The translations under genes were made by a program, and so were the position numbers. DNA of 64,000 bases, from the IMG/VR virus record IMGVR_UViG_3300010938_000025. One strand, 5' to 3'. Shown piece by piece: positions 1 through 54,751 of the stretch (its first letter is position 1; every line of letters starts with the position of its first letter). Source of the DNA: an uncultured virus (IMG/VR IMGVR_UViG_3300010938_000025) (lineage: Duplodnaviria; Heunggongvirae; Uroviricota; Caudoviricetes). The notes under the pieces were generated by a model that did no database searches, was not told where the DNA came from, and saw only the letters and a program-made list of their open reading frames with translations.

Positions 1-332
1 GTGACACACCTGTCACAGGCGTGACACAGGCGGTGACACAGGCGTGACACAGGCGGTGACACACCTGTCACAGTCGTGTCACAGTCGTGACACACCTGTC
101 ACAGGCGTGACACAGGCGGTGACACAGGCGTGACACAGGCGGTGACACACCTGTCACAGTCGTGTCACAGTCGTGACACACCTGTCACAGGCGTGACACA
201 GGCGGTGACACAGGCGTGACACAGGCGGTGACACACCTGTCACAGTCGTGTCACAGTCGTGACACACCTGTCACAGGCGTGACACAGGCGGTGACACAGG
301 CGTGACACAGGCGTGGGGTAGTGTCACAGGCG
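1..332. repeat. Tandem array with 86-bp period (units start at 1, 87, 173, 259; ~3.6 copies) built from 10-13 bp subunits containing GTGACAC / TGTCAC in both orientations
   Basis: Read directly: GTGACACACCTGTCACAGGC recurs at 86-bp spacing; no unique spacers; may continue beyond the window start. Confidence 0.95.
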
Positions 333-20642: not shown

Positions 20643-21341
20643 TCACTTCCAGACGCACGTCACGTTGGGTGTGCGGCATAGTTCCTCAAATTTAAGCCGC
20701 GTGCGCTCGTCCTCGAGTGTACCGACCAGCACGACCAGCTTCGGCCTGGGCGTCTGAGTTGGACTCTCGACCGTCCGGGTTGGGGTGGGCGCCTGGGTTG
20801 GCGCAGGCGGTTTGATCGGGACGCCTTTCAGGCACAGTGCCACCCAGACCGGCCAGTTGTTCGCCTGCCAGCGGCCCAACTCTACCACCTCGACCTGCGC
20901 ATCAAGCAGGATCGCCGCATGTGGCGGACTGGTGAGCCAGGCATCAATCACCTCGGCCCCGCCCACAATGCCACACGCCACCGTCTCCCCGGCCCAATTG
21001 AAGCTCCCGCCTATGCTCCTGAACCAATCCCAGGCCCGTCGTCCTTGAGCGTCGCCATGCCGGCAATCGGTCACGGCAATGTAGTCGGCCAGGGCTTCTG
21101 CGTAACGCTGCACGGCCAGGGCTGCGGTTGTATCCGACCGGACCGGTGGCAATCCCCGCTCCTGGCGGACGATATTCAATCGCTCGAAGGCCAGGGCGCG
21201 CTCCTGCCGGTAGTCCTGGTCGGCGGCCGGCCCGGTCAGCCAGGTTGAACCGACCAGCGGTGGCGGTTCAACGGTCTGAATCTGGCACCTGGCGATAAAC
21301 ACGGCCAGGCCCGTTAGAATAATCAACGGCTTGAGTTGCAT
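20643..21341 (-). CDS. Exported CAP (SCP/Tpx-1) domain protein
   Basis: Signal/lipoprotein-like N-terminus; LNIVRQERGLPPV, GETVACG, IDAWLTSPPHAAILL; PT-rich linker. Confidence 0.85.
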   Translation of the reverse strand: MQLKPLIILTGLAVFIARCQIQTVEPPPLVGSTWLTGPAADQDYRQERALAFERLNIVRQERGLPPVRSDTTAALAVQRYAEALADYIAVTDCRHGDAQGRRAWDWFRSIGGSFNWAGETVACGIVGGAEVIDAWLTSPPHAAILLDAQVEVVELGRWQANNWPVWVALCLKGVPIKPPAPTQAPTPTRTVESPTQTPRPKLVVLVGTLEDERTRLKFEELCRTPNVTCVWK

Positions 21342-21348
21342 GGTCTCC

Positions 21349-21747
21349 TCAGATAATATCACTGAATCCGTAGACCGGCGGCTCACCAGGCGTGTACTCG
21401 ATGATCAGTAGCACCTGTTCGACCTGATACGCCTGCGCCGGCGTGTACTCGATGTCCAGTACAACCTGCTCAACCTGATACGATTGGGCCGGCGTGTACT
21501 CGACGTCCAGTACAACCTGCTCAACCTGATACGATTGGGCCGGCGTGTACTCGACGTCCAGTACAACCTGCTCAACCTGATACGATTGGGCCGGCGTGTA
21601 CTCGACGTCCAGTACAACCTGCTCAACCTGATACGATTGGGCCGGCGTGTACTCGACGTCCAGTACAACCTGCTCAACCTGATACGATTGGGCCGGCGTG
21701 TACTCGACGTCCAGTACAACCTGTTCGACTCGATTATCATATGCCAT
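21349..21747 (-). CDS. Repeat protein, 7 x 17-aa (VEQVVLDVEYTPAQSYQ)
   Basis: GAGGT RBS; ATG overlaps the upstream TGA; in-frame 51-nt repeats. Confidence 0.8.
   Translation of the reverse strand: MAYDNRVEQVVLDVEYTPAQSYQVEQVVLDVEYTPAQSYQVEQVVLDVEYTPAQSYQVEQVVLDVEYTPAQSYQVEQVVLDVEYTPAQSYQVEQVVLDIEYTPAQAYQVEQVLLIIEYTPGEPPVYGFSDII
21389..21728. repeat. 51-bp tandem repeat, ~7 copies
   Basis: Units start at 21389, 21440, 21491, 21542, 21593, 21644, 21695; central copies identical. Confidence 0.97.
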
Positions 21748-22739
21748 CAGCCTGACCTCACGCCGCACTCCAGCGCGTTGACTTTGGCCTGGGTCCAGGC
21801 ACCTGAGTCAGCCGGATCGGTCGTCCAGCGCGTCAGGTATGCCTGCCATGACAGGCTGATAGATTGGTCGGAGCCGGCATAGTCTGTGCCGCCCGACCGG
21901 ATGACGTTGGCGATGGTAGCCGGGTCGGCCTGTGTCTTCTGAGCCCTGGCCTCGGCGATGACCGCCTGGATGGTCGCCCCCGACGGCAGGCTGGGATTGG
22001 CCATCGAGTAGGTGTCCGTCTGGGCAGTAGCCGTGGTCGAGACGTAGTCGGACGACGACGGTGGAATCTCGTCTACGCATTGGTAATTCGCGCCGGCGGA
22101 TGGAGTCCACTGGGTTGTGGTCCCGGCTCCGTCTGGAACCACGGCGATATAGCGCCGGTCGCCGACCCAGCTATTGTCACTGGTACCGCTCGTGTCGTTG
22201 ACTGTGAAATCGTCGAAGTAGGTCGCCTGGGACGTGGTGTTACCAAACCCGCACAGTCTTAGCATATCGACATTCGTGTCTGTACCCGGCTTGGTATCAC
22301 CGGTGTAGTTAATCTCGGCGTTGCTATCTAACCTGACCTCAATCACCCCACCGGTATCAGCAATCTTAACGTGCAACTCCAACAGGTACCAGGTGTCAAC
22401 CGTCAGCACGGTTGTGCCGGTCGCCACCAGGGTTGTGCCAACATAAGCCTCCAGTCTGCGGGTCGTGAAATTCATCTTGATGTCACCCAGTAAGTTGCTA
22501 CTCTTATACCACCGCACGATGTTGTTGTACCCGCTCATGTCCTGGAAGCGTACACCAACGGCCATGTACCATTCCGACAGATTATTCAGACTGGCGATCA
22601 GACTATAGCCGCCGTAAGCCCGGCAGCTATAGGTCCCGGTGCGTGCATGTGTCGTGCTGGCACTCACGTAGGCATTGTCAGAAGGCGTGAACGGTAGCAG
22701 GTCACCGGCCTCAAAACCGCAGTTGTAGACTCTGGCCAT
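21747..22739 (-). CDS. Putative receptor-binding/fibre protein (ConA/LamG-like plus second beta-sandwich)
   Basis: GFEAG, DTWYLLELHV, YFDDF; T/S/G-rich; tail module position. Confidence 0.65.
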   Translation of the reverse strand: MARVYNCGFEAGDLLPFTPSDNAYVSASTTHARTGTYSCRAYGGYSLIASLNNLSEWYMAVGVRFQDMSGYNNIVRWYKSSNLLGDIKMNFTTRRLEAYVGTTLVATGTTVLTVDTWYLLELHVKIADTGGVIEVRLDSNAEINYTGDTKPGTDTNVDMLRLCGFGNTTSQATYFDDFTVNDTSGTSDNSWVGDRRYIAVVPDGAGTTTQWTPSAGANYQCVDEIPPSSSDYVSTTATAQTDTYSMANPSLPSGATIQAVIAEARAQKTQADPATIANVIRSGGTDYAGSDQSISLSWQAYLTRWTTDPADSGAWTQAKVNALECGVRSG

Positions 22740-23413
22740 CAGGCTTCCCTTTCTAGTTCGATCTGTGTGAAAACGCCATTCCCCCATGAGCACGCCGGGC
22801 CGTAGCCGTCATTGCCGGCGCTGGTGGTGGCACAGCGATGCCGGACCTCTAAGACCTTGGAGCTGGCAAGCGTAAACCGCCCTACGACAATGCTATAGGT
22901 CAGGAAGTAGCCCGACGTACTGGCATAGGCGATTGAACCCAACTGGATGTCGGCGGCATCGGTGACGTTGTAGAGTTTGGCCTGATGCCATTCGACATTG
23001 CAGGCCGGGGCATAGACTCTGAATCGATACGTGCCGGCGGCCAGGGTGATCTGATTGCTGGCCACACTCGCGTGATTGCCGGTGTCGCAGACTTCGGTGT
23101 TCAGGTCACGGGTTTGCCAGGCCCCGCCGTAGAACTTGCCGCCCGGCGTATTGGCGGCTTTGGTGTCATTGATCACAATGTAGTTTGTGCCGCTGCCGCC
23201 ACCACCGCCGCTCGGTGTAGACCACTTGACGCCGAGCGCTTGAGCTGAGTCGGCTGTCAGCACCTGACCATCCGAGCCAACGGGTAACCTGTCGCCGGCG
23301 CCGGTACCTGAGCCGATGATGATGTCCCCCTTGGCCGAATAGGCCGGACTGGTGCTGGTGTCGATGGTCGGTGGTAGTGAACGCAGACCTTTTGAGCCGA
23401 GAATGAACGACAT
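22739..23413 (-). CDS. Putative tail fibre-associated protein
   Basis: AKGDII...[15 protein letters not shown]...GVKW module plus beta-rich C-terminus (ITLAAGTY). Confidence 0.65.
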
Positions 23414-23427
23414 GGCAGTCTCCTTTC

Positions 23428-23754
23428 TTACCACTCATCCGCATAGCTGGCGATGAAGTTGACGACTTCGCTGGTACCGCTCACCCGCTGGCCAATGACG
23501 GTATCTGTGTCGCTGATGATGAACGGTGTATCGACGGTGAGGGTCTCGTTGGACTGTAAGGTAGCCCTCCACAGAACATATGTGCTGGTCGAGCGCCTGA
23601 GCTTAAGCTCGACGCTGACGGCATTGGCACCGGTGTTGTGCAGGATAACACTTCTAACCGTCCGGCGCGTATTGGCGGCTGGGCTGCTGACCACGGTCGT
23701 TTCGGCCCCGCCGGTATCCAGGCTTGAAATGCTGGAACTGAGTATGAACGACAT
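23428..23754 (-). CDS. Small virion beta-protein, paralog of 23773..24081
   Basis: Shared SPA...R.VR...LHN.G...EVVNFIASY. Confidence 0.7.
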
Positions 23755-23772: not shown

Positions 23773-24081
23773 TCAGGTCATATCTCCATAGCTGGCAATG
23801 AAATTGACGACTTCGGTCGTGCCGCTCGCCCGTCGGCCGGTGACCGAATCTGCGCTACCCAGGACGAAGGGTGTCTCAATCGTAAAGGATTCGAGTGAGG
23901 CCAGGTTCAGGTTCCAAAATACGTTCGAGTTGATTTTGACCAGGACGTTCACAGCAATACTACCGCGGTTATGCAGGACGATATTTCTCACGACACGTTT
24001 GCCGCTGGCCGGGCTGGCGACGATGGTTGTGTCCGTCCCATCCGTATTCAGTTGCGAGACGTTCGAGTTGAGGGTAAACAC
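23773..24081 (-). CDS. Small virion beta-protein, paralog of 23428..23754
   Basis: Same shared motifs; GGAGG RBS, GTG start. Confidence 0.7.
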   Translation of the reverse strand: MFTLNSNVSQLNTDGTDTTIVASPASGKRVVRNIVLHNRGSIAVNVLVKINSNVFWNLNLASLESFTIETPFVLGSADSVTGRRASGTTEVVNFIASYGDMT

Positions 24082-30321: not shown

Positions 30322-31356
30322 ATGACCATGACCATCGCCGATGCATTCGCTGCCTACTTCCGCCATCTCAAACACGTCCGCGCTCTGAGCGAACAAACCC
30401 TCAAAGCTTACCGCACCCCGGTTAATCACCTCGTCACGTTCTTATCCGTTCAGGGGTTGACCCCAGATTCGACACCGGTTGAGTCCATTTCGACGACGCT
30501 CATCATCGAGTTCCTGGCCTGGCTCGACGAACACCTGCAAAAACGCTCCGACCGCAGCGGTGCCCTCAAAACCCGACGTGTCTACCGCACCGCCATCGCC
30601 GGCCTCTTGAACTTCCTGGTCGTCGAATCACAACTCCTCCCCTGTTCGGTCGAAAATTACGATAGGTTATGTAAAATAATTCTGAGGGGCCTCAGAACCC
30701 CCGCCGCTCAGGCCGTATCGCCTGAGCGACTGCCGACCGATGAAATCGTCAGCCTGCTGCGTGCGACCGTCCAGCAGCCACCCGAACCGCCGGCCGATGC
30801 CACGCCGCACCTGATCCACCTGCAGCACCTGCGCCACCTGCGCGACGTCGCCATTTTCGAGACCCTGGTCAGCTCCGGCCTGCGGGTGGGTGAACTGGTC
30901 GGCCTGCGGCGTGGCAGGTTGCTGTATACCGAGATGGGTGCCATCGTCACCGGCAAGGGCGGTAAAACCCGCGAAGTGCTCCTGTCCCCCACCGCGTGGG
31001 CGGCTATCCAGGCTTACCTGTCTGCGCGCGACGATAGCCCAACTGCATCTTTAGCCGACCTGCCGGTCTTTGCCCGACACGACCGCAGCTCCGGCGACAT
31101 CCCCAAACCCATGACGACCCGCGCAGTCCAGTACATCTTCTACGATCTGGCCCGGCGTGCCCATATCCAGGAACGTTTTCACCTGACGCCCCACACCCTG
31201 CGCCATTTCTTCGCCACCACCTTCCTGAGCAAAACGGGTGATCTGGCCCTCACCCAATACGCACTGGGACATGCCTCACCTACGACCACCCGAGTGTATG
31301 CGCAGACCAGGCGAGAAGACTATCAGCGCGCCCATCGCCGGGTCTTTGAAGCCTAA
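30322..31356 (+). CDS. Tyrosine recombinase (XerC/D-like integrase family)
   Basis: SGLRVGEL, GKGGKTR, PHTLRHFFAT, LGHAS, TRVY catalytic set; N-terminal SAM-like domain. Confidence 0.95.
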   Translation: MTMTIADAFAAYFRHLKHVRALSEQTLKAYRTPVNHLVTFLSVQGLTPDSTPVESISTTLIIEFLAWLDEHLQKRSDRSGALKTRRVYRTAIAGLLNFLVVESQLLPCSVENYDRLCKIILRGLRTPAAQAVSPERLPTDEIVSLLRATVQQPPEPPADATPHLIHLQHLRHLRDVAIFETLVSSGLRVGELVGLRRGRLLYTEMGAIVTGKGGKTREVLLSPTAWAAIQAYLSARDDSPTASLADLPVFARHDRSSGDIPKPMTTRAVQYIFYDLARRAHIQERFHLTPHTLRHFFATTFLSKTGDLALTQYALGHASPTTTRVYAQTRREDYQRAHRRVFEA

Positions 31357-44992: not shown

Positions 44993-45189
44993 ACCGGTTG
45001 CGGGAGTCGTTTGAGGTATCGCTCCCACGAATAGTTTTTGAGGACCAGTTCGGCGCTCAGGCCGGTGTTATCCAGGCTGAGTTGCATGAACGTGGGTACG
45101 CCCTCTCGAATGCGCACCAGATAAAGCGTTCCCTCAACCGGCAGGCAGGCGACAAAGCGTACAAAGTTACCGTGAATTCCATTGAGCAT
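44989..45189 (-). CDS. Hypothetical protein
   Basis: Short ORF with GGAG RBS. Confidence 0.45.
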   Translation of the reverse strand: MLNGIHGNFVRFVACLPVEGTLYLVRIREGVPTFMQLSLDNTGLSAELVLKNYSWERYLKRLPQPV

Positions 45190-46156
45190 AGAGGGTCTCC
45201 AGGCGGTCGATTGACTCTGACCAGGTATAACTCTGGACGGTTTCAAAGCCGCCCCGTATCAGTCTTTGGGCCAGTTCGGTATCGTTCAGCAATAACCGGA
45301 TGGCACGCGCAATCAGAGTGTTATCGTACCAGGGCACGACAATGCAGTTATAACCGTCTCGAATGAAATGCTCGTTACCGTGACAGGCGGTGGTAATCAC
45401 CGGGCAGCCGCAGGCCATCGCCTCCAGTATCGGCAGCCCAAATCCCTCGTGCAGCGAAGGTTGTAAGAATACGCTGGCCTGGTTATAGAGTTCGCACAGC
45501 CCGGCGTCGGTCGGTTTGAGAATGTACTGACCGGGCGGCTCCAGCGGCATGGGTTCGACCCCGAACAGTTTGAGAGGCGGTCTGGGGTTGAGCAGACGCC
45601 AGGCGCCTAAGATGGCCGTCTGATTCTTGAGAACCTCACGCCGGCCGATGGCCAGAATACTTCCGTCGCGCGCCTGCTGCGTCGGTCTGAAAACCTCAAG
45701 GTCCACCCACGGTGAGACTATCTCGGCCTGCAGGCCGAAATAGCGCCTGAGCGTCTGCTGTATCCAGGGCGAGGTCGTGACGTAAAACAGGTCAGGCGTA
45801 TAAGTCGCATGGACTTGCAATTGATAGGCCGGGTCCGTCAGTCGATAGCTTGATTCGATGTCTTGCACAAAGTACACGCCCGTGCCACGCCGCAGACAAC
45901 TGCGTCTGACCAGGCTCGCCGTTTCCCACCAGGTGGCGACCTTGAGTCCGTCAGTCTCGTATAGCGCAGCCAGCATTGCCTGGTAGCTCTGGAACGCCAC
46001 CACCGGCACATCCAGGTCAGTCCACTGTGTGTCGCTGAGAGCTATGACGAACAGTTGGCAGTCATGCCCCCGTGCTGCCAGACGGTTGAGGTGCTCAAAC
46101 ACCACTCTGGGGCCGCCGCCAATACCGACCCGTGGCAGGCAGTATGTAATCCTCAA
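45167..46156 (-). CDS. Glycosyltransferase, GT4 (GT-B fold)
   Basis: GGGPRVVFEH, ATWWET, EGFGLPILEAMACG. Confidence 0.92.
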   Translation of the reverse strand: MRITYCLPRVGIGGGPRVVFEHLNRLAARGHDCQLFVIALSDTQWTDLDVPVVAFQSYQAMLAALYETDGLKVATWWETASLVRRSCLRRGTGVYFVQDIESSYRLTDPAYQLQVHATYTPDLFYVTTSPWIQQTLRRYFGLQAEIVSPWVDLEVFRPTQQARDGSILAIGRREVLKNQTAILGAWRLLNPRPPLKLFGVEPMPLEPPGQYILKPTDAGLCELYNQASVFLQPSLHEGFGLPILEAMACGCPVITTACHGNEHFIRDGYNCIVVPWYDNTLIARAIRLLLNDTELAQRLIRGGFETVQSYTWSESIDRLETLYAQWNSR

Positions 46157-46884
46157 TCGTATTCCCCTCGCTCCAGTTTCCGCCTGATATACAGTGCCCG
46201 GCCGCGCAGGGCATCCCCAAGCTGACAGTAATTTCGGGTATGCCAGCGGTGTATGCTCAGGAACTGCCTGAGCTCACAGATACCGAATGGCTGTAGCTTG
46301 AGGTTCAAGTCCCAATCGCTGGCGCCTCCGGCTGCGGGATCACAGCCACCTACCCGGCGGACCAGTTCCAATCGGGTCAGACGCTGTGGGTGGTTGAACA
46401 GGTTTTGCCGCCGGAGTAGCTCAGGCGTGTAGGTCGGAATGCCTTCCGGGCCATATCTACCCCTGACATGGCAACGCCAGTCCGGTTGACCGCGCATGTC
46501 GGTCTCAAGCTGCAGACAATAGACGGTGCCGCACGTGTGGCGATCCAGGTGCCCGGCCAGGACCCGCAGAAAATCTGGATGGGCCAGGTCATCATCTTCC
46601 ATGATCCAGAGGTACCTGCCGCGTGCATACTCCAGGCCATAGTTGATGGCTTCCGGCAGGCCGGCATTGGCCCGCACGAGCCACCTGGCCCGTTCGTCCT
46701 TAAGCGTCAGGTCGCGGCTGGCCGTATAGTCGATCTGCGCGGGTGTACCGTTTTGAATCACAATGAGCTCCCAATCCGACAGACTCTGGGCCAGAATCGA
46801 CTCTACGGCGGCTTCAAAGAACACCGGTCCAGGTCGGTCGTGAGTTGGTAGTAGAATGCTGACCTTGGGAGTTACTTCAGGCAT
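46153..46884 (-). CDS. Glycosyltransferase, GT2 (GT-A fold)
   Basis: VSILLPTHDR, NYGLEYARG, MEDDD, SDWDL. Confidence 0.9.
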   Translation of the reverse strand: MPEVTPKVSILLPTHDRPGPVFFEAAVESILAQSLSDWELIVIQNGTPAQIDYTASRDLTLKDERARWLVRANAGLPEAINYGLEYARGRYLWIMEDDDLAHPDFLRVLAGHLDRHTCGTVYCLQLETDMRGQPDWRCHVRGRYGPEGIPTYTPELLRRQNLFNHPQRLTRLELVRRVGGCDPAAGGASDWDLNLKLQPFGICELRQFLSIHRWHTRNYCQLGDALRGRALYIRRKLERGEYD

Positions 46885-47420
46885 ACAAACTCCATCAGAT
46901 AGAGTTCACGTCGGCGGTAGAAGGCTTTGGCATGTATCGTCCTCAACTTCGCGGCCTCAAGCGCCGCCTCCAGGCGCGGCTGATAATGAAAATACTGTGG
47001 ACCGTCCCAGTTAACGACATGTTCACCGGGTTCGTCGTGACACCACGAGACCATGATCAGGCGCCCGCCGGGTTGTAGAACCCGGTAATACTCCTGGATA
47101 ACCTGTTCTACCTCGGCGATGTGATCGATGGTGGACAGATCGGCGACGGCTGCAAATATCGTGGACTGAAACGGCATACGCCGCAGATCGCCTGTACAAA
47201 ACCAACGCTCTGGATAACGCGCCCTGGCCCTGGCCACCGTCAGTGGATTGATTTCCAGATAGCAGGTACGTTGTGGGTGTAGCCCGCAGTTATCCAGGTG
47301 TTTGAAATCCTCAGGTGCTGCCTCGTTAAAACAGTCCGTCTTGAGTACCAGGCCCGCGGAGTCCGGCAGGTATTCGGTCAACAGGTATCGATAGTGTGCG
47401 TAGACGTCTTCAATGCACAT
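46872..47420 (-). CDS. Class I SAM-dependent methyltransferase
   Basis: GDLRRMPF, STIDH, EYYRVLQPGG. Confidence 0.8.
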   Translation of the reverse strand: MCIEDVYAHYRYLLTEYLPDSAGLVLKTDCFNEAAPEDFKHLDNCGLHPQRTCYLEINPLTVARARARYPERWFCTGDLRRMPFQSTIFAAVADLSTIDHIAEVEQVIQEYYRVLQPGGRLIMVSWCHDEPGEHVVNWDGPQYFHYQPRLEAALEAAKLRTIHAKAFYRRRELYLMEFVCLK

Positions 47421-47970
47421 TGATCAAAAACCAGACGTGCCGCCGACTGTACTCGGCTAAACCCGCAGGCTCTATTCGCCAGTCTGAGTCGGTTCGATAG
47501 CCTGATCGACTCAGGCCGGTCATCATCTCCGACAGGTAGCCCAATTCCATCAGGTCTTCGCACATCTCGACCACGACGTATTGGGGTGTATATCGCGCCG
47601 CAATCTGACATACGGTCTGGTGGAGCGTCTGACTCTCGTACTCGTTCAGACCGGCTGCGAAGCCCAATGCCAGCAGGACGTCAACCGACAGTCCCAATCG
47701 GTCCAGTTCCGACAGGCAATGGCGGTCGTCCAAGACCCAGAAGGTAGTCTGCAGGTTGGGATATGCAGTTCTGGCCAGTTGGATGGCTGCGGCGTCGGTG
47801 TCCAGACCGATATAGTGTTTGAAGACCGGCGGCAGGTAGCGTAAGAGGGGTGCTTTGCCGCAAGCCAGATCGAGTATGACCTTATGCTCGATCTTGCGGG
47901 CCAGATACCCGGCGATCAGGTACAGGCGTCCGTCAAGCCATTTTGTATCCAGGTGTGGCCAGCGATTCAA
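47410..47970 (-). CDS. Class I SAM-dependent methyltransferase
   Basis: ILDLACG, YIGLDTD. Confidence 0.75.
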   Translation of the reverse strand: MNRWPHLDTKWLDGRLYLIAGYLARKIEHKVILDLACGKAPLLRYLPPVFKHYIGLDTDAAAIQLARTAYPNLQTTFWVLDDRHCLSELDRLGLSVDVLLALGFAAGLNEYESQTLHQTVCQIAARYTPQYVVVEMCEDLMELGYLSEMMTGLSRSGYRTDSDWRIEPAGLAEYSRRHVWFLINVH

Positions 47971-47971
47971 G

Positions 47972-48247
47972 TCAATCCGCTCCGTCAGGCTCGATCAGCG
48001 AGAACTCATCGAACGGCTCGTGTGGTCGCCGTTGATTATGGAGCCAATAGGCAAACTCCAATGCGTCTCCCTTGTCCTGCCAGGGGACAATGTTACTTCT
48101 GAAGTTGGACCTCGAGCCGTCCTGACCGATGTACTCGAAAGACTGTCGGTCCATAACACACCAGGCTTCAAAGGATGGCACATAAATCGAACGGCCACCG
48201 TGCAGGTTGGGGATTTCTTTACGCTGACCCGGAACTTTAATGGGCAT
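47972..48247 (-). CDS. Hypothetical protein
   Basis: ORF filling a gap in the operon. Confidence 0.55.
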   Translation of the reverse strand: MPIKVPGQRKEIPNLHGGRSIYVPSFEAWCVMDRQSFEYIGQDGSRSNFRSNIVPWQDKGDALEFAYWLHNQRRPHEPFDEFSLIEPDGAD

Positions 48248-48269
48248 GATGGCAAAGCAACACATCTTC

Positions 48270-48533
48270 TCAACCCCGATCTGTATAACCTGGCGGGCAA
48301 CCCTGCCGTGTGCGCGTGGTACATTCGTAGATGTAGGTGACCTGAAGATAGGTGACCTGCATGGTCGGCGCTTCAGGCCGGGGCACGGCGATCTGAGGCA
48401 TCACCGGCCAGACCTGTTGCGTGCCGCGGACCTCGATCAGGCGTCCGGCAAAGCAGTGTCGGCGTGGACAGGCCTCAGAAATAGTGTTCTCGTATTGAAT
48501 TATCGGTCGCATTGTTGCATCCACGTAATCCAA
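48270..48533 (-). CDS. Hypothetical Cys-containing protein
   Basis: ORF filling a gap; start uncertain. Confidence 0.4.
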   Translation of the reverse strand: MDYVDATMRPIIQYENTISEACPRRHCFAGRLIEVRGTQQVWPVMPQIAVPRPEAPTMQVTYLQVTYIYECTTRTRQGCPPGYTDRG

Positions 48534-49279
48534 TTGCGAACAGCCAATGGGTGTTCGCCCTCGAACGGCTTAAACTCACCCGCCTGGCGTGCTCGTTCAA
48601 ACACGTAGGCGTAGTCTACCTCGCCGCGCTGGTAGCTCTCGACGATTTTGGGATCGGGAAAGCCCAGATCGGTATACAGGGCCTGGAAATCAATTTCTTT
48701 TTTGGCAGCCGCGGCGGCCCGGCCGATCTGGACTTTACCGTAGTGATACACCTGCAGGTATGGCGCATCCAGCACCGGTCCGCGACCATTATCTACCTGA
48801 CAGGCATCCCCCACCATGACCCAGCCGGCGGAGCGTCGCCAGATACGGCGGGCCTGCTGGTAGACGAACGGGAATGTCGTCTTGAAGTCCACCACAAAAT
48901 GGGTATAGCTGGGACGAATGGCGGTTGCACCCATGGCCTCGGCCGTCTGGAGGGCTTCTTCAAACAGTCCGTATGAGGTGTGATGGATGACTTCATCCAG
49001 ATCGAGCTTCATCAGCCAGTCTGTCCTGGCGTGACCGGCCAGGTAGTTACAAATCTCGGACTGGATGGTGTAGTGTGTGCCCCAGGGATGTCGGAACAGG
49101 CGCAGGTTGTTATAGCGGCGGGTCAGATTGATCAGGGTCTGCCAGGTATCATCGCGTGAGTAGCATTCGGCTACCAGGACCTCATCGGCTATGGCGCAGG
49201 CGCTTTCGATGGCCGCTTCAAATGGATAGCGAATCTCGATCAGGTTGTACCCGAAACAGATGACAGATAATGGAATCAT
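48500..49279 (-). CDS. Glycosyltransferase, GT2
   Basis: ADEVLVAECYSRDDT, WLMKLDLDE, VYHYG. Confidence 0.85.
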   Translation of the reverse strand: MIPLSVICFGYNLIEIRYPFEAAIESACAIADEVLVAECYSRDDTWQTLINLTRRYNNLRLFRHPWGTHYTIQSEICNYLAGHARTDWLMKLDLDEVIHHTSYGLFEEALQTAEAMGATAIRPSYTHFVVDFKTTFPFVYQQARRIWRRSAGWVMVGDACQVDNGRGPVLDAPYLQVYHYGKVQIGRAAAAAKKEIDFQALYTDLGFPDPKIVESYQRGEVDYAYVFERARQAGEFKPFEGEHPLAVRNWITWMQQCDR

Positions 49280-50064
49280 CGGTATAGTTTGCTCCAGCCA
49301 TTGCGCCTGGCGTCATCTAAGGTCACGACGTAGGTTCTCAAAGGGTCAGGCAGAGGCGCAATGGGATACGTGCTGTGTTTGGCCCGCACGTAACGCTCAG
49401 GCGCACCCGGCGGAATGCCCCGCTCGGTCATCTCGCGGGCCCAACGTTTCAGTCGCTCGCCCCGCTGTCGCAGGGAGTCATCTGTCCCCAACAGGCTACA
49501 CTCGAAAATGCACACTTCAGGACAGATCGCCTTGTCGATTCGGGTGCGAGTGTAGGCCAGTTGAGTCTTAACCGGCCCGGCAGCGATGGCTTCGGGTTGT
49601 TCGTGCGCCAGGCCCACATAGCGGATACCGACGTTTTTCAACATCCGGGTACTGACGCCGGTGCTGGATCGGACGCAATAGTGCCACATGTCCTGACGCA
49701 TATATTTCACCGGGAAGTCCCAAACGTCGTGCGCGTCAAAATAACCCTGGTCCAGGAGCCAGACGAAGTTACCCGATATGGCCATGTCGGCATCCAGGTT
49801 CAGGACGAAATCACCGCTGGCCAGCTCAAGCCCCCGGTTACGTTGGTCAGCCCAATTGAGCATGGTGTGCCGGACCCACACCAACGGCAGGCCGAACTCT
49901 TCTGCCAGGTCGGTCGCCACCTGACGCGAGTTGTCGGTGGAATCGTCGTCTAAGACGATCCACTCTTTCAGGCGCGGGGGTCGAATGGCCGCATAGCTGG
50001 GCACAACCAGCGGTAGCATCTCGGCTTCGTCTTTCAACAAATTCACAATGCTAACGGTTCGCAT
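49276..50064 (-). CDS. Glycosyltransferase, GT2
   Basis: LDDDSTDNS, QRNRGLELASGD, LDADM, GLAHE. Confidence 0.88.
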   Translation of the reverse strand: MRTVSIVNLLKDEAEMLPLVVPSYAAIRPPRLKEWIVLDDDSTDNSRQVATDLAEEFGLPLVWVRHTMLNWADQRNRGLELASGDFVLNLDADMAISGNFVWLLDQGYFDAHDVWDFPVKYMRQDMWHYCVRSSTGVSTRMLKNVGIRYVGLAHEQPEAIAAGPVKTQLAYTRTRIDKAICPEVCIFECSLLGTDDSLRQRGERLKRWAREMTERGIPPGAPERYVRAKHSTYPIAPLPDPLRTYVVTLDDARRNGWSKLYR

Positions 50065-50704
50065 CAACTGACCCCGCTCTGGTAAAGATGGCGGCCAGTA
50101 CCCCCTCGGAATCGTAAATGGCCTGACCCTGCACAGGCCGGGTATAGGTATACCCGGCCTGTGCAAGCAACGTGCACCACCAGGTCTTGGGATGACATTG
50201 GATGTGGGTCGGATCGTTGCGGCTGACTGGCAGTACGAATGTCTCACCCTCCTGCCTGGACACAGGCAACCTGACCACGAGGTGTTTGGCTGTGACAATC
50301 GAAAGGATGTTATCCAGCTCGCCGTCAGGGATGTGCTCAAGTACATCCAGGAGTAACAACCAGTCGGCTGCGCGCTCCAATAACGACCAGTTGAGGTACT
50401 GCAGGACCTCAGGCGACAGTCCGTAGCGTGTACGGCCGTAATTGATGGCCCAAACACTGATGTCCGTGCCGTATACAGACTGTAGACCAAGCCGGCGCAG
50501 CGCGGCGACCAGTCCACCGGTACCACAGCCGAAGTCGATAACGGTCTGGTGAGATTCGATGCCCTGGGCCAACAGGTCGCGGGCCAGTTGCTCGAACTTA
50601 CGGTCCAGGTAGTTGGCGTAATTGCCGGTCTGATAATAGGCTTGGGTGAAGTGTCTGGTCAGGTTCGGAGTCTGAGCATATTCGTTTGCCAGTCGCCAAT
50701 GCAT
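50051..50704 (-). CDS. Class I SAM-dependent methyltransferase
   Basis: VIDFGCGTG, GTDIS, DVLEHI, DPTHI. Confidence 0.88.
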   Translation of the reverse strand: MHWRLANEYAQTPNLTRHFTQAYYQTGNYANYLDRKFEQLARDLLAQGIESHQTVIDFGCGTGGLVAALRRLGLQSVYGTDISVWAINYGRTRYGLSPEVLQYLNWSLLERAADWLLLLDVLEHIPDGELDNILSIVTAKHLVVRLPVSRQEGETFVLPVSRNDPTHIQCHPKTWWCTLLAQAGYTYTRPVQGQAIYDSEGVLAAIFTRAGSVDANR

Positions 50705-50706
50705 AT

Positions 50707-50985
50707 TCAGTTTTCCAGGAACAGTTTGTACACGGCGGTTGCAATTCCGAAGATGGCCGGTGTCACCGTGCTGAGCCAGGTCAGGAACTCCGGTGGGTTG
50801 CTGACCGGCGCACCGGCGAGCGCGCCGGTACCGAGCATGGCCACCAGCGCGATCACCAGGGACACGCCCATCGCCAACCAGAGTTTCTGCGTGGACGACC
50901 AATGGGGTTGTTTGAGCAGGTTGATGATAAACGGCGCGACCAACCCGCCCAGCCACATAGCGATCACCAAAGCACTGTTCTCCAT
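50707..50985 (-). CDS. Holin-like membrane protein
   Basis: 92 aa, 3 hydrophobic helices, LLKQPHWSS..K. Confidence 0.6.
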   Translation of the reverse strand: MENSALVIAMWLGGLVAPFIINLLKQPHWSSTQKLWLAMGVSLVIALVAMLGTGALAGAPVSNPPEFLTWLSTVTPAIFGIATAVYKLFLEN

Positions 50986-50997
50986 AATGACCTCCCT

Positions 50998-51945
50998 CTA
51001 CAAAAATGCGGCGTGCTGAACTGGAGTGCACACCTGGTCCAACAAACGGTTTTGAGACGTAAAAAAGCACTTCTCGAAGTGACACTCAAACGGTGCGACG
51101 TCAGCAAAGAAAGTATCTATGTCCTGGATACGGCACATGCGATACTCGGTTGGGAAACGACGGTCTTGCAGGGCCACTCCACTGCAACGGTAGAGCCAGC
51201 CGTCTGAGTTGACATACGGCTTTAGAAAGCTGATGCGACAGGGGACGGTGGGGGTAAGCCCGCGGGCCGCTTTCTGTTGCACAAACGCCTGTGGCACTGC
51301 CACCTGCAGGTCCTCGATTGCGCGGGTCAAAGCTGGCAGTTGCTCAACCGGTGACAGGCAATCTGGCACCAATCTCAGGTAACGCGGATTGTGCCTGCGT
51401 GAGAATGTCTGAACACGGTCGATCACCTGAGGTGTGGTCTGGGAGTTGACCACATACGAGAAGCCCAGAGTGCACGTATCCGGCACCTTTGGGACATCCG
51501 GCTCAAGCCCGAAGTCCAGGCCGGACAGAGAGATACGTATCCAGGTCAGTCTGGCCAGGTCCTGTGGGGTCAGGAACCGGTTCATTTTCAGTCCATTGGT
51601 AATCAGCCCGACCTGAATGTGACGTCGCTCCAGATCGGCCAGCAGTCGTCCCAAATGGGGCCACATGAGCGGCTCGCCGCCGCCGGTCAGGACGACACCT
51701 CGCAGGCGCTGCAGGCGGTGGCTATCCAACAAACATTGGACATCGTCCCAACTCAGGCTCAGACCGGGCCTGTCGCGTACACTACAGAAGGTGCAGGTCA
51801 GGTTACACGTATCCGTTAAGGCCAACTCCAGGCTGACCGGCCACCAGTCGGTTGAGCTGTTGGCGGCCAGATGAAGTCGGTCCAGATTGGCCAACAGTTT
51901 CTGTTCGGTTGATGTAAACAATGTCTCGGCCGATATAGCGTCCAT
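50998..51945 (-). CDS. Radical SAM protein with C-terminal Cys-containing (SPASM/twitch-like) region
   Basis: CNLTCTFC, TGGGEP, ITNG, DGWLYRC. Confidence 0.9.
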   Translation of the reverse strand: MDAISAETLFTSTEQKLLANLDRLHLAANSSTDWWPVSLELALTDTCNLTCTFCSVRDRPGLSLSWDDVQCLLDSHRLQRLRGVVLTGGGEPLMWPHLGRLLADLERRHIQVGLITNGLKMNRFLTPQDLARLTWIRISLSGLDFGLEPDVPKVPDTCTLGFSYVVNSQTTPQVIDRVQTFSRRHNPRYLRLVPDCLSPVEQLPALTRAIEDLQVAVPQAFVQQKAARGLTPTVPCRISFLKPYVNSDGWLYRCSGVALQDRRFPTEYRMCRIQDIDTFFADVAPFECHFEKCFFTSQNRLLDQVCTPVQHAAFL

Positions 51946-51955
51946 TGTGTCTCCA

Positions 51956-53023
51956 TCAGAATAGCCGTTGCTCTACAGCCATCGGTTTCAGGCAATGCGG
52001 CGAGAACCACAGTCGTTCTCGCCCGGCATTCTTGTGAATATGTTGTGGATCGGTAGAAGTTGCGTTATATCCACGCCCGCTGCCGGCTTTACCGTGTACA
52101 CACTCCCAGGAATCCGGCATGTCGTGTTCGCCCTCATACCCGGCCAGGACAATGCGGTATCTTGGATCGTCGCCATGCGCAATGCACCACTCCCGCACGG
52201 CATGTGCCACAGCTAACGAATCGCGCGCGTACAACTCCGGCGTGCGGTCTGCCGCATCTGAGTAAGGCGGATCGAAAAAGATACCGACCGGAGTAGCCCG
52301 ATGAATCGTGGGCGAATGGCCGCACACCCGACTCCAATCCCCACAACAGATTGACACCCGACGTAACCTGTGAGATAAGGCCATCATCCAGGCGGTGATA
52401 TTGGCCAGGGAAATGTCACATTGGCCTGAAAACTCTGTGTCATCCATTTGATGAACCGTCTGTTTATGTATGCCTTGCGCCCCACTTAAACGCACTATGC
52501 GTCTCGTGACGCCTGGCCCGGCACGCCTGAGCCTGATCAACCGCTCGCCATCCGTACTCCAGCCGCCCTGACCGGAACACCACCCGCCGCCGATCCAGCA
52601 GGCTATCCCCCACAGCCACCAGCCGGCGGCCTTGGGATCACACCACTCCGGATCGCCCATCAGACGTGCGGTCAATTCTTCTCTACGGTTTACCAGCCAG
52701 ATGTGCCGGGCCGTCAGATCGCATTCGCTGACAATCCACGAAGCGTGGCGCGCCACTTCTGCCGGTTGCAACTGGATTGCCCGCCAGGTATTGGTCAGCA
52801 GTCCGTCTACATCGTTGACCGTCTCGATCCGCGGTTGACCATCGGCCCAGACGCCGCGCCGCCAATCCCAACCTGGACGTTTCAACAGCACGGCTAAAGA
52901 ACCGGCAAACGGCTCGATGTAATTTTTGACATCGCCCAAACGCGCCCAGACCAGCGGCGCAACCTGCGATTTCCCGCCGAAGTATGGGAAAGGGGCAGTG
53001 CCGTATAATCTACGCCGGCTCAC
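51956..53023 (-). CDS. DNA adenine methyltransferase (D12 class)
   Basis: PFPYFGGKS, EPFAGS, FFDPPY; GTG start inferred from RBS. Confidence 0.88.
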   Translation of the reverse strand: MSRRRLYGTAPFPYFGGKSQVAPLVWARLGDVKNYIEPFAGSLAVLLKRPGWDWRRGVWADGQPRIETVNDVDGLLTNTWRAIQLQPAEVARHASWIVSECDLTARHIWLVNRREELTARLMGDPEWCDPKAAGWWLWGIACWIGGGWCSGQGGWSTDGERLIRLRRAGPGVTRRIVRLSGAQGIHKQTVHQMDDTEFSGQCDISLANITAWMMALSHRLRRVSICCGDWSRVCGHSPTIHRATPVGIFFDPPYSDAADRTPELYARDSLAVAHAVREWCIAHGDDPRYRIVLAGYEGEHDMPDSWECVHGKAGSGRGYNATSTDPQHIHKNAGRERLWFSPHCLKPMAVEQRLF

Positions 53024-53966
53024 AGTCCCTCGCAACTTCACGCGCAACGAACTCACCAGGCCCTGCGTGATCCGCCTCAAACAGACTCAATTGCAATCCG
53101 CGCAATTCCTCAGTGCGACGTGCGATACAATTCGGGTTAACCCAAACGCTCTCGGTGCGTTGGATCAGGTCGGTCTGGCCCGATCTGGCGTCCGCATTCC
53201 GCATGGCCTGTCGGCAAATGACATCGATATCCGTGCGTAGCCAGCCGGCCTGCTCCAGGCGGTCGTAATCCGGGTGAGCATAGCCGGATAAGACCACCAT
53301 GCCCTTGAGGTCCAATAAGACGTTGACCAGTCCTAAGTGATCGGCGCGGTCGAGTTCGACCTGATAGCGTTTAGGGACGACCCGCGTTTCCGGGTGATAG
53401 GGTGGGTCCAGGTAGAAAAGTGTATCCGGTGTATCGTAGCGGCGCACACAATTCAGCCAGTCGTCGCACTCAATCTGGACCTTACGGAGTCTGGCGTGGA
53501 ACCAGGTCAGATCGTGCAGGGACTTCAACCAACGACTGACAGGCGCAGGCGGTCGGACACCGAAACGCCAGCCGCCGTGTCCCCAATCGCCGGCGAACGA
53601 TTGTTGGGCAACGACAAACCAGCGTACAGCCCGCTCAATCGGGTCTGTGGCGTCGGGCTGCCGGCGCAGGTCGTTCAGATACTCCAGGAACTGCTCACGC
53701 GAGTAAGGTAAGGTATCCAGGCGGCGTAACATGTGCGGAAACTGCTCCGGGTTGGCCAGGACTCTGAAAAAGTTGATCAGGTCATGGTTAATATCGTTGA
53801 CCACCTCGACCTGGCTTGGCGGTTTAAGCCACAGGCAGGCCAGTGAGCCGGCGAACGGTTCGACATACGTCGTATGGTCTGGGAACATAGACACGAGCCG
53901 CGGTGCCAGTGCAGCTTTACCACCGTAATAGCCAAAGGGAACTTTAGTGGTTCTATTCAAGACCAA
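53010..53966 (-). CDS. DNA adenine methyltransferase (D12 class)
   Basis: PFGYYGGK, EPFAGS, YLDPPY, TESVW. Confidence 0.92.
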   Translation of the reverse strand: MVLNRTTKVPFGYYGGKAALAPRLVSMFPDHTTYVEPFAGSLACLWLKPPSQVEVVNDINHDLINFFRVLANPEQFPHMLRRLDTLPYSREQFLEYLNDLRRQPDATDPIERAVRWFVVAQQSFAGDWGHGGWRFGVRPPAPVSRWLKSLHDLTWFHARLRKVQIECDDWLNCVRRYDTPDTLFYLDPPYHPETRVVPKRYQVELDRADHLGLVNVLLDLKGMVVLSGYAHPDYDRLEQAGWLRTDIDVICRQAMRNADARSGQTDLIQRTESVWVNPNCIARRTEELRGLQLSLFEADHAGPGEFVAREVARDCEPA

Positions 53967-54381
53967 GGTTTAGCCTCACACGTACAATGCCGATGATACG
54001 GACCGGCGTCACGCCCTGTTGTCGGAAGTCACGACAAAAGAGTTGCGAAGCTGCCGCCTCGCTGACGTCCACGATAATGCGCGGATGGCGTGGCATCCGG
54101 TCGGTCAGTTCGACCACCACAGCTCGACACGGAGACATGAGCACAACCCGTGTCCCCAGCGGCAGGTCCAACCAGGTGGCGGCGGTCAGCGCCTGCGAAT
54201 CGAACGGCCGGCCGTTGGCCATCGTCCGGTTGTAGTAGCCTGGTCCGTACCAACTGGCCAGTTCAGGTCCATCGGCCCAGACCTGAGTGATGGTCAGGGT
54301 TAATAACAGAGCCATCAGGGCTGCCCGGCGTAGCCGCCCCGACTCTACGCCGGGCAGCCTGCAAGGAGGAGGAGAAAGCAA
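53953..54381 (-). CDS. RlpA-like double-psi beta-barrel protein (lytic transglycosylase-like), exported; start may be 54315
   Basis: ASWYGPG, TMANG, LTAA, LPLGT, IVDVSEAAA. Confidence 0.85.
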   Translation of the reverse strand: MLSPPPCRLPGVESGRLRRAALMALLLTLTITQVWADGPELASWYGPGYYNRTMANGRPFDSQALTAATWLDLPLGTRVVLMSPCRAVVVELTDRMPRHPRIIVDVSEAAASQLFCRDFRQQGVTPVRIIGIVRVRLNLGLE

Positions 54382-54394
54382 AATCGGTTATACC

Positions 54395-54751
54395 TCAGAC
54401 ATACATGCTTTCGCTCTCAGGTGCGGGCAGGCTCTGTCCGACCAGATGCAGTTCGCCGACCACGCTCTCGATCAACAGATCGAGTTGTTCGGTTGTCAAT
54501 TGTGGCAGGATACGCTTGAGATCGGCCATTAAGCGAGCCTTACGCTCAGGCCCGCGTCCATCACCTCTCAGGGCCTGATCCATCGCCTTAACGCCGGTCT
54601 CGACCCAATAGTACCACTCGGCGCGCACGTATGCGCGCTTATGCGCATTCAGCCAGCCGACGGCGGCGTGGCCCAAACGTGTCAGGACCAGGCTGACGAC
54701 GGCCAGTAAAATGTCTACGACGATGTTGTGATCAAGCGTGATAGTTTCCAT
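54395..54751 (-). CDS. Phage holin (LL-H-like)
   Basis: One TM; VKAMDQ...GPERK...LIESVV; adjacent to endolysin. Confidence 0.7.
   Translation of the reverse strand: METITLDHNIVVDILLAVVSLVLTRLGHAAVGWLNAHKRAYVRAEWYYWVETGVKAMDQALRGDGRGPERKARLMADLKRILPQLTTEQLDLLIESVVGELHLVGQSLPAPESESMYV

What the first reader, a model, noticed from the sequence alone, without database searches (positions are those of the whole stretch)
21349..22739. 7x beta-strand repeat protein may complete the upstream fibre domain in trans
Seen: a 132-aa protein made almost entirely of 17-aa repeats, each a beta-strand-like VEQVVLDVEY plus a TPAQSYQ linker. It is translationally coupled (TGATG) to a lectin-like protein ending ...GAWTQAKVNALECGVRSG. 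From unverified recollection, similar beta-sandwich domains usually continue after W-T...L..GV with a final strand resembling RVTQVxVEVxY, which is absent here and resembles each repeat. Inference: each repeat donates the missing strand to one adhesin copy, giving a string of up to 7 receptor-binding subunits whose valency changes with repeat number.
Basis: inference. Interest (0 to 1): 0.75.

Follow-up and report, generated by a model that had tools for sequence, protein, structure and literature searches.

The report
Phage lectin protein with tandem donor-strand partner
A phage tail gene pair encodes a two-domain sugar-binding-type protein whose second domain lacks its last strand, followed by a small protein made of seven copies of that strand, and the same pairing recurs in many phages, which suggests an undescribed way of clipping binding modules onto phage tails.

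Summary
ORF2 (21349..21747, minus strand, 132 aa) holds seven 17-aa units. It overlaps the stop of ORF1 (330 aa) in TGATG.

ORF1 folds confidently (pLDDT 95.6) into a ConA/LamG-like jelly roll plus a second beta-sandwich that ends at the family's usual C-terminus.

Rare fused homologs carry one copy in cis after that domain. In 24 of 59 related phage loci, 2-5 copies at a 17-aa pitch lie just downstream, and none lies upstream or on the other strand. A profile of the array finds 432 protein clusters.

AlphaFold2 of a natural ORF1-domain::4-unit fusion docks one unit, the last and most hydrophobic, as a strand. The result matches complete CBM-type jelly rolls. The other three units stay disordered.

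Trans completion of ORF1's domain by at least one unit is therefore the best reading (about 0.55). One ORF1 copy per unit (a 7-mer string) is not excluded but unshown (about 0.3).

Arrays also occur without the acceptor domain and after complete domains, so a self-assembling stalk remains a serious rival. Five literature searches found no description of such strand arrays.

The parts
21747..22739 (-). ORF1, 330 aa (stop included): two-domain lectin-like tail accessory protein, member of phrog_2448
   Evidence: phrog_2448 E 2.6e-35, residues 86-329 on profile positions 92-333 of 335; 261 homologs; AF2 pLDDT 95.6, pTM 0.91
22170..22739 (-). ORF1 N-terminal domain (about aa 1-190): ConA/LamG-like beta jelly roll
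   Evidence: strands E3-182. Foldseek PDB: Cip1 3zyp E 4e-8 TMt 0.67, alginate and glucuronan lyases, sialidase lectin domains. Only a weak Pfam CBM_4_9 hit.
21750..22157 (-). ORF1 C-terminal beta-sandwich (about aa 195-330). It ends with strand LECGVR (E324-329) and lacks the further strand present in cis in fused homologs
   Evidence: The homologous domain in P0151 matches CBM-type jelly rolls once a unit is docked.
21745..21749 (-). TGATG stop/start overlap of ORF1 and ORF2. GAGG Shine-Dalgarno at 21756..21759
   Evidence: read from the sequence
21349..21747 (-). ORF2, 132 aa (stop included): MAY + seven 17-aa strand units + 14-aa tail
   Evidence: (7 units at aa 12..114 of the 139-aa reading, spacing 17)
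21389..21723 (-). 51-bp tandem array (6.6 copies, 96% matches)
21394..21423 (-). Core of unit 7 (VEQVLLIIEY), the divergent and most hydrophobic unit. It is the equivalent of the unit that AF2 docks in the natural fusion P0151
   Evidence: hydropathy 1.32 against 0.53-0.56 for units 1-6
21352..21393 (-). C-terminal tail TPGEPPVYGFSDII. It loosely resembles the [RK]x[YF]GPxxQ tails of many small array proteins
   Evidence: 15 of 80 small proteins matched by a regex; the likeness of ORF2's tail was judged by eye
22739..23434 (-). Upstream tail-fibre-like gene (231 aa), coupled to ORF1 by a second TGATG overlap
   Evidence: phrog_24210 tail fiber protein, E 6.3e-27

Best explanation
ORF1 and ORF2 are a split acceptor/donor pair at the end of a phage tail-fibre module. 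ORF1 is a lectin- or lyase-like accessory protein: a ConA/LamG-type jelly roll plus a CBM-like jelly roll that stops one strand short. ORF2 belongs to a widespread, unannotated family of strand arrays. These are tandem units of consensus [RK]-V-[ST]-Q-V-x-x-[EQ]-V-E-Y plus a Pro/acidic linker, at a fixed pitch of 17-18 aa. At least one unit, most likely the last and most hydrophobic one, inserts as the missing C-terminal strand of ORF1's second domain (beta-strand complementation in trans). This tethers ORF1 non-covalently. In other phages the same array sits at the N-terminus of distal tail, minor tail or J-like fibre proteins, so its general job is to hang ORF1-type binding modules on the tail tip. 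In this window it is a free-standing adaptor with its own short tail. The remaining six, more polar units probably offer further docking sites, so copy number could set valency. Shown: the anatomy, the family-wide gene linkage, the cis-fused forms, and the AF2 docking of one unit in a natural fusion. Inferred: binding in trans, the stoichiometry, and the location on the virion.
For: (1) Family end point: 26 of the 28 aligned ORF1 homologs end where ORF1 ends. The other 2 (P0085, P0031) continue with ...SYQALAQVEW(I/A)V. The unit HMM scores these at 7.3 and 3.6, and scores 0 of the 118 other listed homologs at 4 or more. More distant fused forms carry one strand after each module (P0121 twice, P0122, Kharn p21). 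(2) Linkage: in 59 viral loci found through ORF1 alone, arrays of 2 or more units lie at the N-terminus of the next gene in 18 loci and within 1.7 kb downstream in 6 more. None lies upstream or on the other strand. A DNA-pattern scan that did not use ORF1 gave 12 loci: 5 on contigs already known, 4 new true arrays that each start within 1 to 11 nt of the end of an ORF1 homolog (E 1e-109 to 1e-123), and 3 chance hits. In phiCbK and Brevundimonas phage Bambus the array lies immediately upstream of the ORF1 homolog. (3) Natural fusion P0151 (ORF1-type domain + 4 units), AF2 with an 81-row alignment: domain pLDDT 87-97; units 1-3 pLDDT 43-62 with no structure; the last unit is strand E225-238 with pLDDT 78-84. 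Structural matches to complete single-domain CBMs span model residues 31..235, so they include that strand (7d2a CBM32: Z 9.3, 125 of 129 residues aligned; 2yc2: Z 9.4, 119 of 132). (4) The last unit is more hydrophobic than the others in 67 of 85 arrays (Wilcoxon p 4e-10), and in ORF2 as well. (5) Array-bearing neighbours are tail-tip proteins: Dit phrog_1302, Sipho_Gp37/minor tail, and J-like fibre phrog_11439.
Against: AF2 models ORF1 alone at pLDDT 95.6 with no weak region in the second domain, so nothing in the model itself demands a further strand. No coordinates could be inspected, so the pairing partner of the docked strand is unknown. P0151 lacks the N-terminal domain, which might expose an artificial docking surface, and it could be an assembly or frameshift artefact. 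Arrays occur directly after a LamG domain with no acceptor domain (P0230, 7 units). They also occur after domains that keep their own last strand (second gene of L004, TRFY-type proteins) and as long internal arrays (P0132, about 12 units). These cases fit an autonomous structural module. The very constant 17-aa pitch (155 of 251 spacings are 17 aa and 57 are 18 aa) would also suit a regular self-assembled structure. 35 of 59 loci had no array by the strict count. Of these, 6 have under 800 nt downstream, and several have divergent units seen only by eye.
Confidence: 0.55

Rival explanations
1. The array is a self-assembling beta structure, for example a three-chain beta-helix or another stacked stalk with one strand per chain per layer. 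It serves as an oligomerisation and spacer module of tail-tip proteins. ORF1's second domain is complete, and the gene linkage only reflects shared location in the adhesion device.
For: Arrays are found at N-termini, inside and at C-termini of many different proteins, and after complete domains or with no acceptor domain. The pitch is constant and the copy number varies from 1 to about 12. The ESM Atlas's own model of ORF2 resembles beta-solenoids such as pentapeptide and bactofilin types. ORF1 alone is modelled confidently.
Against: The Atlas model is of low confidence (pLDDT 0.57, pTM 0.35). Each unit has only one strand-like stretch plus a Pro-rich polar linker. AF2 leaves 3 of 4 units disordered in P0151 and docks one on the domain. 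Single-unit cis forms follow the domain exactly. A single unit flanked by long PT-rich linkers (L011 downstream gene) cannot form a stalk by itself. A monomer prediction cannot, however, exclude a trimeric assembly.
Confidence: 0.25
2. ORF2 is a transient assembly chaperone. Its strands temporarily complete ORF1's domain, as PapD does for pilins, until a strand from a structural tail protein replaces them. ORF2 is then absent from the virion.
For: ORF2 has a small size, is translationally coupled to ORF1, and has no further domain. Phage fibre modules often end with small chaperones (general knowledge).
Against: The same arrays are covalent parts of structural proteins (Dit, minor tail, J-like fibre). 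No other protein in this window carries a unit that could take over (one search found units only in ORF2). Small array proteins have conserved C-terminal tails of a few types, which suggests a second, permanent contact.
Confidence: 0.1
3. ORF1 and ORF2 are made as one polypeptide by a programmed -1 frameshift or readthrough; or the seven-copy array is a recent slippage product without a function of its own.
For: ORF2 is in the -1 frame of ORF1 with a 1-nt overlap. A fused relative exists (P0151). Units 1-5 are identical at DNA level, so the expansion is recent.
Against: There is no slippery heptamer before the stop (by eye). ORF2 has its own GAGG and ATG. Junctions in relatives vary from -4 to +19 nt and involve different frames. 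The unit and its pitch are conserved at protein level across distant phages.
Confidence: 0.05

Closest known systems
Donor-strand complementation/exchange of chaperone-usher pili (PapD-pilin, Fim). The TasA and CPR pilus fibres use the same principle (general knowledge; TasA paper PMC9674648 seen as search listing and abstract only)
   Same: An acceptor beta-sandwich encoded without its C-terminal strand is completed by a strand from another polypeptide.
   Different: The acceptor here is a CBM-like jelly roll of a phage tail protein, not an Ig-like pilin. The donors are 2-12 tandem copies in one chain at a fixed 17-aa pitch. There is no chaperone or usher. Binding is not shown experimentally.
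phrog_2448 / phrog_6368 (function unknown), with phiCbK gp315 + gp316 and Brevundimonas phage Bambus 04230 + 04240 as cultured examples
   Same: ORF1 is a member of phrog_2448 (E 2.6e-35). phiCbK gp316 is MAD + 3 units + tail and lies next to the ORF1 homolog gp315.
   Different: In the phiCbK group the array lies upstream, free or fused to the C-terminus of the preceding glycine-rich protein, and has 3 units against 7 here. All of these proteins are annotated as hypothetical.
Accessory carbohydrate-binding modules of siphophage adhesion devices (evolved Dit, BppA of Tuc2009/TP901-1-type baseplates). General knowledge; review PMC7291167 and PMC10688798 seen as search listing only
   Same: Lectin-type jelly-roll modules are added to tail-tip proteins to widen or strengthen host-glycan binding.
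   Different: There the modules are inserted covalently or bound through globular domains. Here attachment would be through a short repeated strand motif encoded in the neighbouring gene.
Split-domain peptide tags such as SpyTag/SpyCatcher (engineered from a CnaB2 domain; general knowledge, recalled)
   Same: A strand peptide completes a split beta-sandwich. Tandem tags can string several partners together.
   Different: The system here is natural, no isopeptide chemistry is indicated, and the fold is different.
Triple beta-helix / beta-solenoid stalks of phage fibres (T4 gp5C, gp12; general knowledge)
   Same: Short tandem strand repeats occur in tail proteins with variable copy number.
   Different: Those repeats carry turn glycines and several strands per coil. 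The unit here is one 11-residue amphipathic strand plus a Pro-rich linker, and it is linked to a strand-less acceptor domain.

Membership tests
phrog_2448 (ORF1) | Significant full-length match to the family profile | tested here: met
   E 2.6e-35, residues 86-329 on profile positions 92-333 of 335. Second hit phrog_6368, E 3.1e-19.
ConA-like lectin/glucanase (LamG-type) jelly roll, ORF1 N-domain | Fold match of the predicted structure to solved members | tested here: met
   Cip1 3zyp E 4e-8 (TMt 0.67), PL-type lyases, sialidase lectin domains, calreticulin. The model has pLDDT 95.6.
ConA-like lectin/glucanase (LamG-type) jelly roll, ORF1 N-domain | Pfam sequence match above the curated cut-off | tested here: not met
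   only CBM_4_9 at 17.4 bits against a cut-off of 25.9.
CBM / galactose-binding-like jelly roll (ORF1-type C-domain plus one unit) | Fold match covering the whole domain, including the C-terminal strand | tested here: inconclusive
   on the P0151 model: Z 9.5-8.0 for 40 chains, with model ranges 28/31..235/238. The tool notes that Z 7-8 is common by chance. Only alignment ranges are given, not residue pairs.
Donor-strand complementation systems | Acceptor domain encoded without its last strand | tested here: met
   fused homologs continue with one strand. 26 of 28 aligned homologs lack it, and 0 of 118 listed homologs score as having it.
Donor-strand complementation systems | A strand from a second polypeptide occupies that position | tested here: inconclusive
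   Only an AF2 model of a natural fusion, in cis. No trans complex was obtained.
Donor-strand complementation systems | Dedicated chaperone and usher | not tested
   No family search for them was made. The genes around the pair match phage tail families. This is an analogy only, not membership.
Strand-array family defined here (profile A3) | Two or more units of [RK]V[ST]QVxx[EQ]VEY type at a 17-18 aa pitch, next to an ORF1 homolog | tested here: met
   ORF2 has 7 units spaced exactly 17 aa. The unit differs at two motif positions (E for S/T, D for E/Q).
Strand-array family defined here (profile A3) | Last unit more hydrophobic than the others | tested here: met
   ORF2 scores 1.32 against 0.53-0.56. 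In the family, 67 of 85 arrays show this.
Beta-solenoid / triple beta-helix | Confident model or sequence signature of stacked coils | tested here: inconclusive
   the Atlas model has solenoid-like neighbours but pLDDT 0.57 and pTM 0.35.
Programmed -1 frameshift fusion (gpG/GT type) | Slippery heptamer before the upstream stop, conserved among relatives | tested here: not met
   (by eye: none in GAGTGCGGCGTGAGGTCAGGCTGA). Junction geometry varies among loci.

The most novel reading that the evidence does not exclude
Phages build a non-covalent bottle-brush fibre by threading. A peptide carrying n tandem donor strands at a fixed 17-aa pitch captures n copies of a two-domain lectin, each completed by one strand. 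The valency of the adhesin (7 here, usually 3, up to about 12) is then set by a 51-bp repeat number that changes by slippage. The same strand/acceptor code would be a portable connector that hundreds of phage lineages use to hang binding modules on Dit, minor tail and J-like fibre proteins.
Probability: 0.3. Interest if true: 0.85.

Novelty: new variant of a known kind. Interest (0 to 1): 0.72.

Why it matters
If the strand array really completes ORF1-type domains in trans, it is a simple, sequence-readable docking code for phage receptor-binding accessories. It would explain a large set of hypothetical small genes in tail modules (432 clusters at E <= 0.001). It would allow partners to be predicted from sequence. 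It would link host-range valency to a fast-evolving tandem repeat. It would also offer a natural peptide/domain pair for modular assembly. Cultured phages carry the pair (phiCbK gp316/gp315), so it can be tested directly.

Tried and rejected
- **Complex prediction.** Complex prediction of ORF1 (alignment A2) with ORF2 residues 1-40 gave ipSAE 0.01 and 0.05, verdict "no answer". I do not use it as evidence either way.
- **ORF2 sequence searches.** tblastn of ORF2 against phages found no match. The word-based homolog search of ORF2 found none at E <= 0.001. Exact look-ups of the 132-aa and 139-aa readings found neither in the collection.
- **Junction and read searches.** Exact-DNA scans for the ORF1/ORF2 junction gave 0 hits in metagenome contigs and viral contigs. 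For sequencing runs, none was listed. Copy-number variation within this lineage therefore could not be checked.
- **Own genome.** No whole genome is held for the window.
- **Searches that failed or were too strict.** A strict DNA pattern found only 1 locus, so it was loosened.
- **Discarded alignments.** A4 and A5 were misaligned and were discarded. The row set for A6 was chosen after local MAFFT trials and checked.
- **Structure and family libraries.** The PDB sequence profile search with A2 gave nothing relevant. Small array proteins have no PHROG at E <= 0.001. Pfam finds nothing in the fused homologs.
- **False positive.** P0152 (20 'stretches') is a junk repeat, not an array.
- **Literature.** Five full-text searches and passages of PMC13252515 gave nothing on tandem donor strands in phages. 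Subscription papers and bioRxiv supplements were not searchable.
- **Earlier findings of this scan.** Three look-ups gave nothing on this pair.

Full report
**1. The observation**

ORF2 (21349..21747, minus strand, 132 aa) is made of seven 17-aa units, a 5-residue head (MAYDN) and a 14-residue tail.
- Tandem Repeats Finder reports a 51-bp period, 6.6 copies and 96% matches at 21389..21723.
- Units 1-5 are identical even at DNA level. Unit 6 has two conservative changes.
- Unit 7 (VEQVLLIIEY) is clearly different.
- ORF2's ATG overlaps the TGA of ORF1 (21747..22739, 330 aa) as TGATG, and a GAGG lies 8 nt upstream.
- The fibre-like gene before ORF1 (phrog_24210) is joined to ORF1 in the same way.

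The surroundings are a phage or prophage tail module. They hold a 1673-aa tape-measure-like protein with an M23 peptidase, a 1136-aa tail protein and fibre-like genes. No whole genome is held for the window.

**2. ORF1**

ORF1 is a member of phrog_2448 (E 2.6e-35), and the profile ends where ORF1 ends.
- Of 261 homologs, the 120 listed are nearly all 317-343 aa long.
- In an alignment of 28 of them, 26 stop at the same ...xEIGxKSxA position.
- AF2 with 112 sequences gives pLDDT 95.6 and pTM 0.91.
- The N-terminal part is a jelly roll. Its best solved look-alikes are Cip1, alginate and glucuronan lyases, and lectin domains of sialidases.
- The second part is a beta-sandwich whose last strand (E324-329) is the very C-terminus.
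- Predicted viral structures of the same two-domain shape include a virion structural protein of Achromobacter phage AchV4.

**3. The missing strand is real**

The two longer homologs (P0085, P0031) continue after about 8 residues with SYQALAQVEW(I/A)V, which resembles the ORF2 unit.
- A search among longer proteins found P0121, which has two LamG+sandwich modules, each followed by one strand (...RVTSLWLLVEYVP and ...QVSTLWLLVDYSS).
- It also found P0122 (...MRCTNIALMVDF).
- Sphingomonas phage Kharn p21 has a cis extension as well.
- A unit HMM scores the cis strands of P0085 and P0031 (7.3 and 3.6). It scores none of the 118 other listed homologs at 4 or more.

This domain type normally has one more strand, and the ORF1 family is encoded without it.

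**4. The array is a family, and it is tied to ORF1**

In 59 viral loci fetched through ORF1 homology alone, the next gene often starts with MAD followed by 2-5 units such as RVTQVLVEAEH, KVSQVFTQFAYE or RITQVGVMIEY.

A strict HMM count over all six frames:

| Position of array (2 or more units) | Loci (of 59) |
|---|---|
| N-terminus of the next gene | 18 |
| Within 1.7 kb downstream | 6 |
| Upstream or on the other strand | 0 |
| None by the strict count | 35 |

- Six of the 35 loci without an array have under 800 nt of downstream sequence.
- Several others show divergent units by eye (L016, L044/45, L046/55, L052, L053).
- Some loci are near-duplicates, for example L002/L007, L028/L029 and L024/L050.

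The reverse test used a degenerate DNA pattern for two units and did not use ORF1. It hit 12 loci:
- 5 lie on contigs already known.
- 4 are new true arrays, each starting 1-11 nt after an ORF1 homolog (E 3.6e-109 to 3.8e-123).
- 3 are chance matches.

In phiCbK, the 69-aa gp316 (MAD + RVTQETVEVIS, RLTQETVEVIS, RLTQVTVEVIR + tail) lies immediately upstream of the ORF1 homolog gp315. In Brevundimonas phage Bambus, three units end the preceding glycine-rich protein.

**5. Anatomy of the family**

A profile of 13 three-unit segments (A3) finds 432 cluster representatives at E <= 0.001 and 70 at E <= 1e-10 among 1.84 billion proteins. Among the best 150:
- 155 of 251 spacings between successive units are exactly 17 aa, and 57 are 18 aa.
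- Three units is the mode (77 of 150), but the profile itself had three units, which biases this count.
- 93 arrays are N-terminal, 26 are C-terminal and 18 are internal.
- 80 proteins are 130 aa or shorter, and 51 of these have three units.

ORF2's seven units are thus at the high end. P0230 also has 7, and P0132 has about 12.

Long array-bearing proteins are tail-tip components:
- Sipho_Gp37/minor tail protein (L006, L020)
- distal tail protein (L053)
- J-like fibre with FN3 (L062, L065)
- LamG plus F5/8-C proteins (L025)

Small array proteins end in a few recurring tail types. ORF2's tail ...PPVYGFSDII loosely resembles the [RK]x[YF]GPxxQ type. Neither Pfam nor PHROGs names the small proteins.

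**6. What a unit does: the best available test**

P0151 is a natural fusion of an ORF1-type second domain with four units and a tail. AF2 with a checked 81-row alignment gives the following:

| Part of P0151 | pLDDT | Secondary structure |
|---|---|---|
| Domain | 87-97 | folded |
| Units 1-3 | 43-62 | none |
| Last unit | 78-84 | 14-residue strand, E225-238 |

An exhaustive structural comparison then matches complete single-domain CBM or galactose-binding-type jelly rolls, and the model ranges run to residues 235-238. Examples are CBM32 7d2a (Z 9.3, 125 of 129 residues aligned) and IFT25 2yc2 (Z 9.4, 119 of 132). So the docked unit stands where those folds have their C-terminal strand. This is inferred from alignment ranges, and the Z values are only moderately above the chance level the tool quotes.

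Across the family the last unit is more hydrophobic than the others in 67 of 85 arrays (p 4e-10). In ORF2 the values are 1.32 for the last unit against 0.53-0.56 for the rest.

**7. Interpretation**

The linkage, the cis forms and the fusion model together make trans completion of ORF1's second domain by an ORF2 unit the best explanation (0.55). The last unit is the prime candidate.

The pitch of one 11-residue strand plus a 6-residue linker would allow acceptor domains to sit head to tail along the peptide. One ORF1 per unit is therefore geometrically possible. That is my own estimate and was not modelled, and nothing shows it.

Against it, or at least complicating it:
- ORF1 alone is modelled with full confidence.
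- Arrays occur with no acceptor domain in the same chain (P0230).
- Arrays follow domains that keep their own last strand (the second gene of L004, which has VYLDCIRLTVYY and then 5 units, and TRFY-type proteins).
- The Atlas's low-confidence model of ORF2 looks solenoid-like.

A self-assembling stalk (0.25), a transient strand-donating chaperone (0.10) and a frameshift fusion or functionless expansion (0.05) remain as rivals.

**8. Comparison and novelty**

- The principle is that of donor-strand complementation in chaperone-usher pili and TasA-type fibres.
- The function resembles the accessory carbohydrate-binding modules of siphophage baseplates.
- The tandem, fixed-pitch donor array and its use in phage tails were not found in five full-text searches or in the passages read of PMC13252515. 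Subscription literature was not covered.
- I file it as a new variant of a known kind.
- It can be tested in phiCbK (gp315/gp316).

Noticed in passing
window 20643..21386 (-): Directly after ORF2 lies a CAP/SCP-domain protein (Pfam CAP 27.5 bits, cut-off 21.1). It probably starts at the ATG at 21340 (GGAG 6 nt upstream) with a signal- or lipoprotein-like N-terminus, MQLKPLIILTGLAVFIARC. It looks like a secreted moron at the end of the tail module.
   Followed up: no
window 30322..31356 (+): A tyrosine integrase (phrog_1, E 6e-37) sits on the opposite strand between the 1136-aa tail protein and the 1673-aa tape-measure-like gene. This is an unusual place inside a tail module.
   Followed up: no
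window 23428..23754 and 23773..24081 (-): Two adjacent paralogous small genes (108 and 102 aa; phrog_20100, the second one only weakly) with the same ...VVNFIASY(A/G)D ending lie between fibre-like genes.
   Followed up: no
window 22739..22775 (-), C-terminus of the 231-aa fibre-like protein: The protein before ORF1 ends ...[14 protein letters not shown]. This single stretch faintly resembles the strand unit. It is probably the last strand of its own domain.
   Followed up: no
window 45167..57557 (-): A block of glycosyltransferases, a radical-SAM protein, methyltransferases, two DNA methyltransferase genes and an amidase lies inside the phage-like region.
   Followed up: no
L060 2349..3648 (phiCbK gp316, gp315); L077 995..3151 (Bambus 04240, 04230): In Dolichocephalovirinae the strand array lies upstream of the ORF1 homolog, either free (69 aa) or fused to the C-terminus of a glycine-rich 'lectin-like' protein. 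Gene order is therefore not fixed.
   Followed up: partly
L011 3768..4244 (+): The gene after this ORF1 homolog has a single unit (IEVDQVLAQVEYL) flanked by long Pro/Thr-rich mucin-like linkers, like a tethered single donor strand.
   Followed up: no
L024 / L050 (two ORF1-type paralogs, then 214-aa and 120-aa genes): Two LamG-type paralogs in tandem are followed by two array-bearing genes, with 2 and 3 or more units. This may be two acceptor/donor pairs in one phage.
   Followed up: no
L061 2920..3909 (Pseudanabaena phage Pam4 gene 35): The ORF1 homolog of Pam4 is annotated 'polysaccharide lyase'. The next gene starts with loosely repeated (R)VGAVAPxxLA stretches that the unit HMM does not score.
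   Followed up: partly
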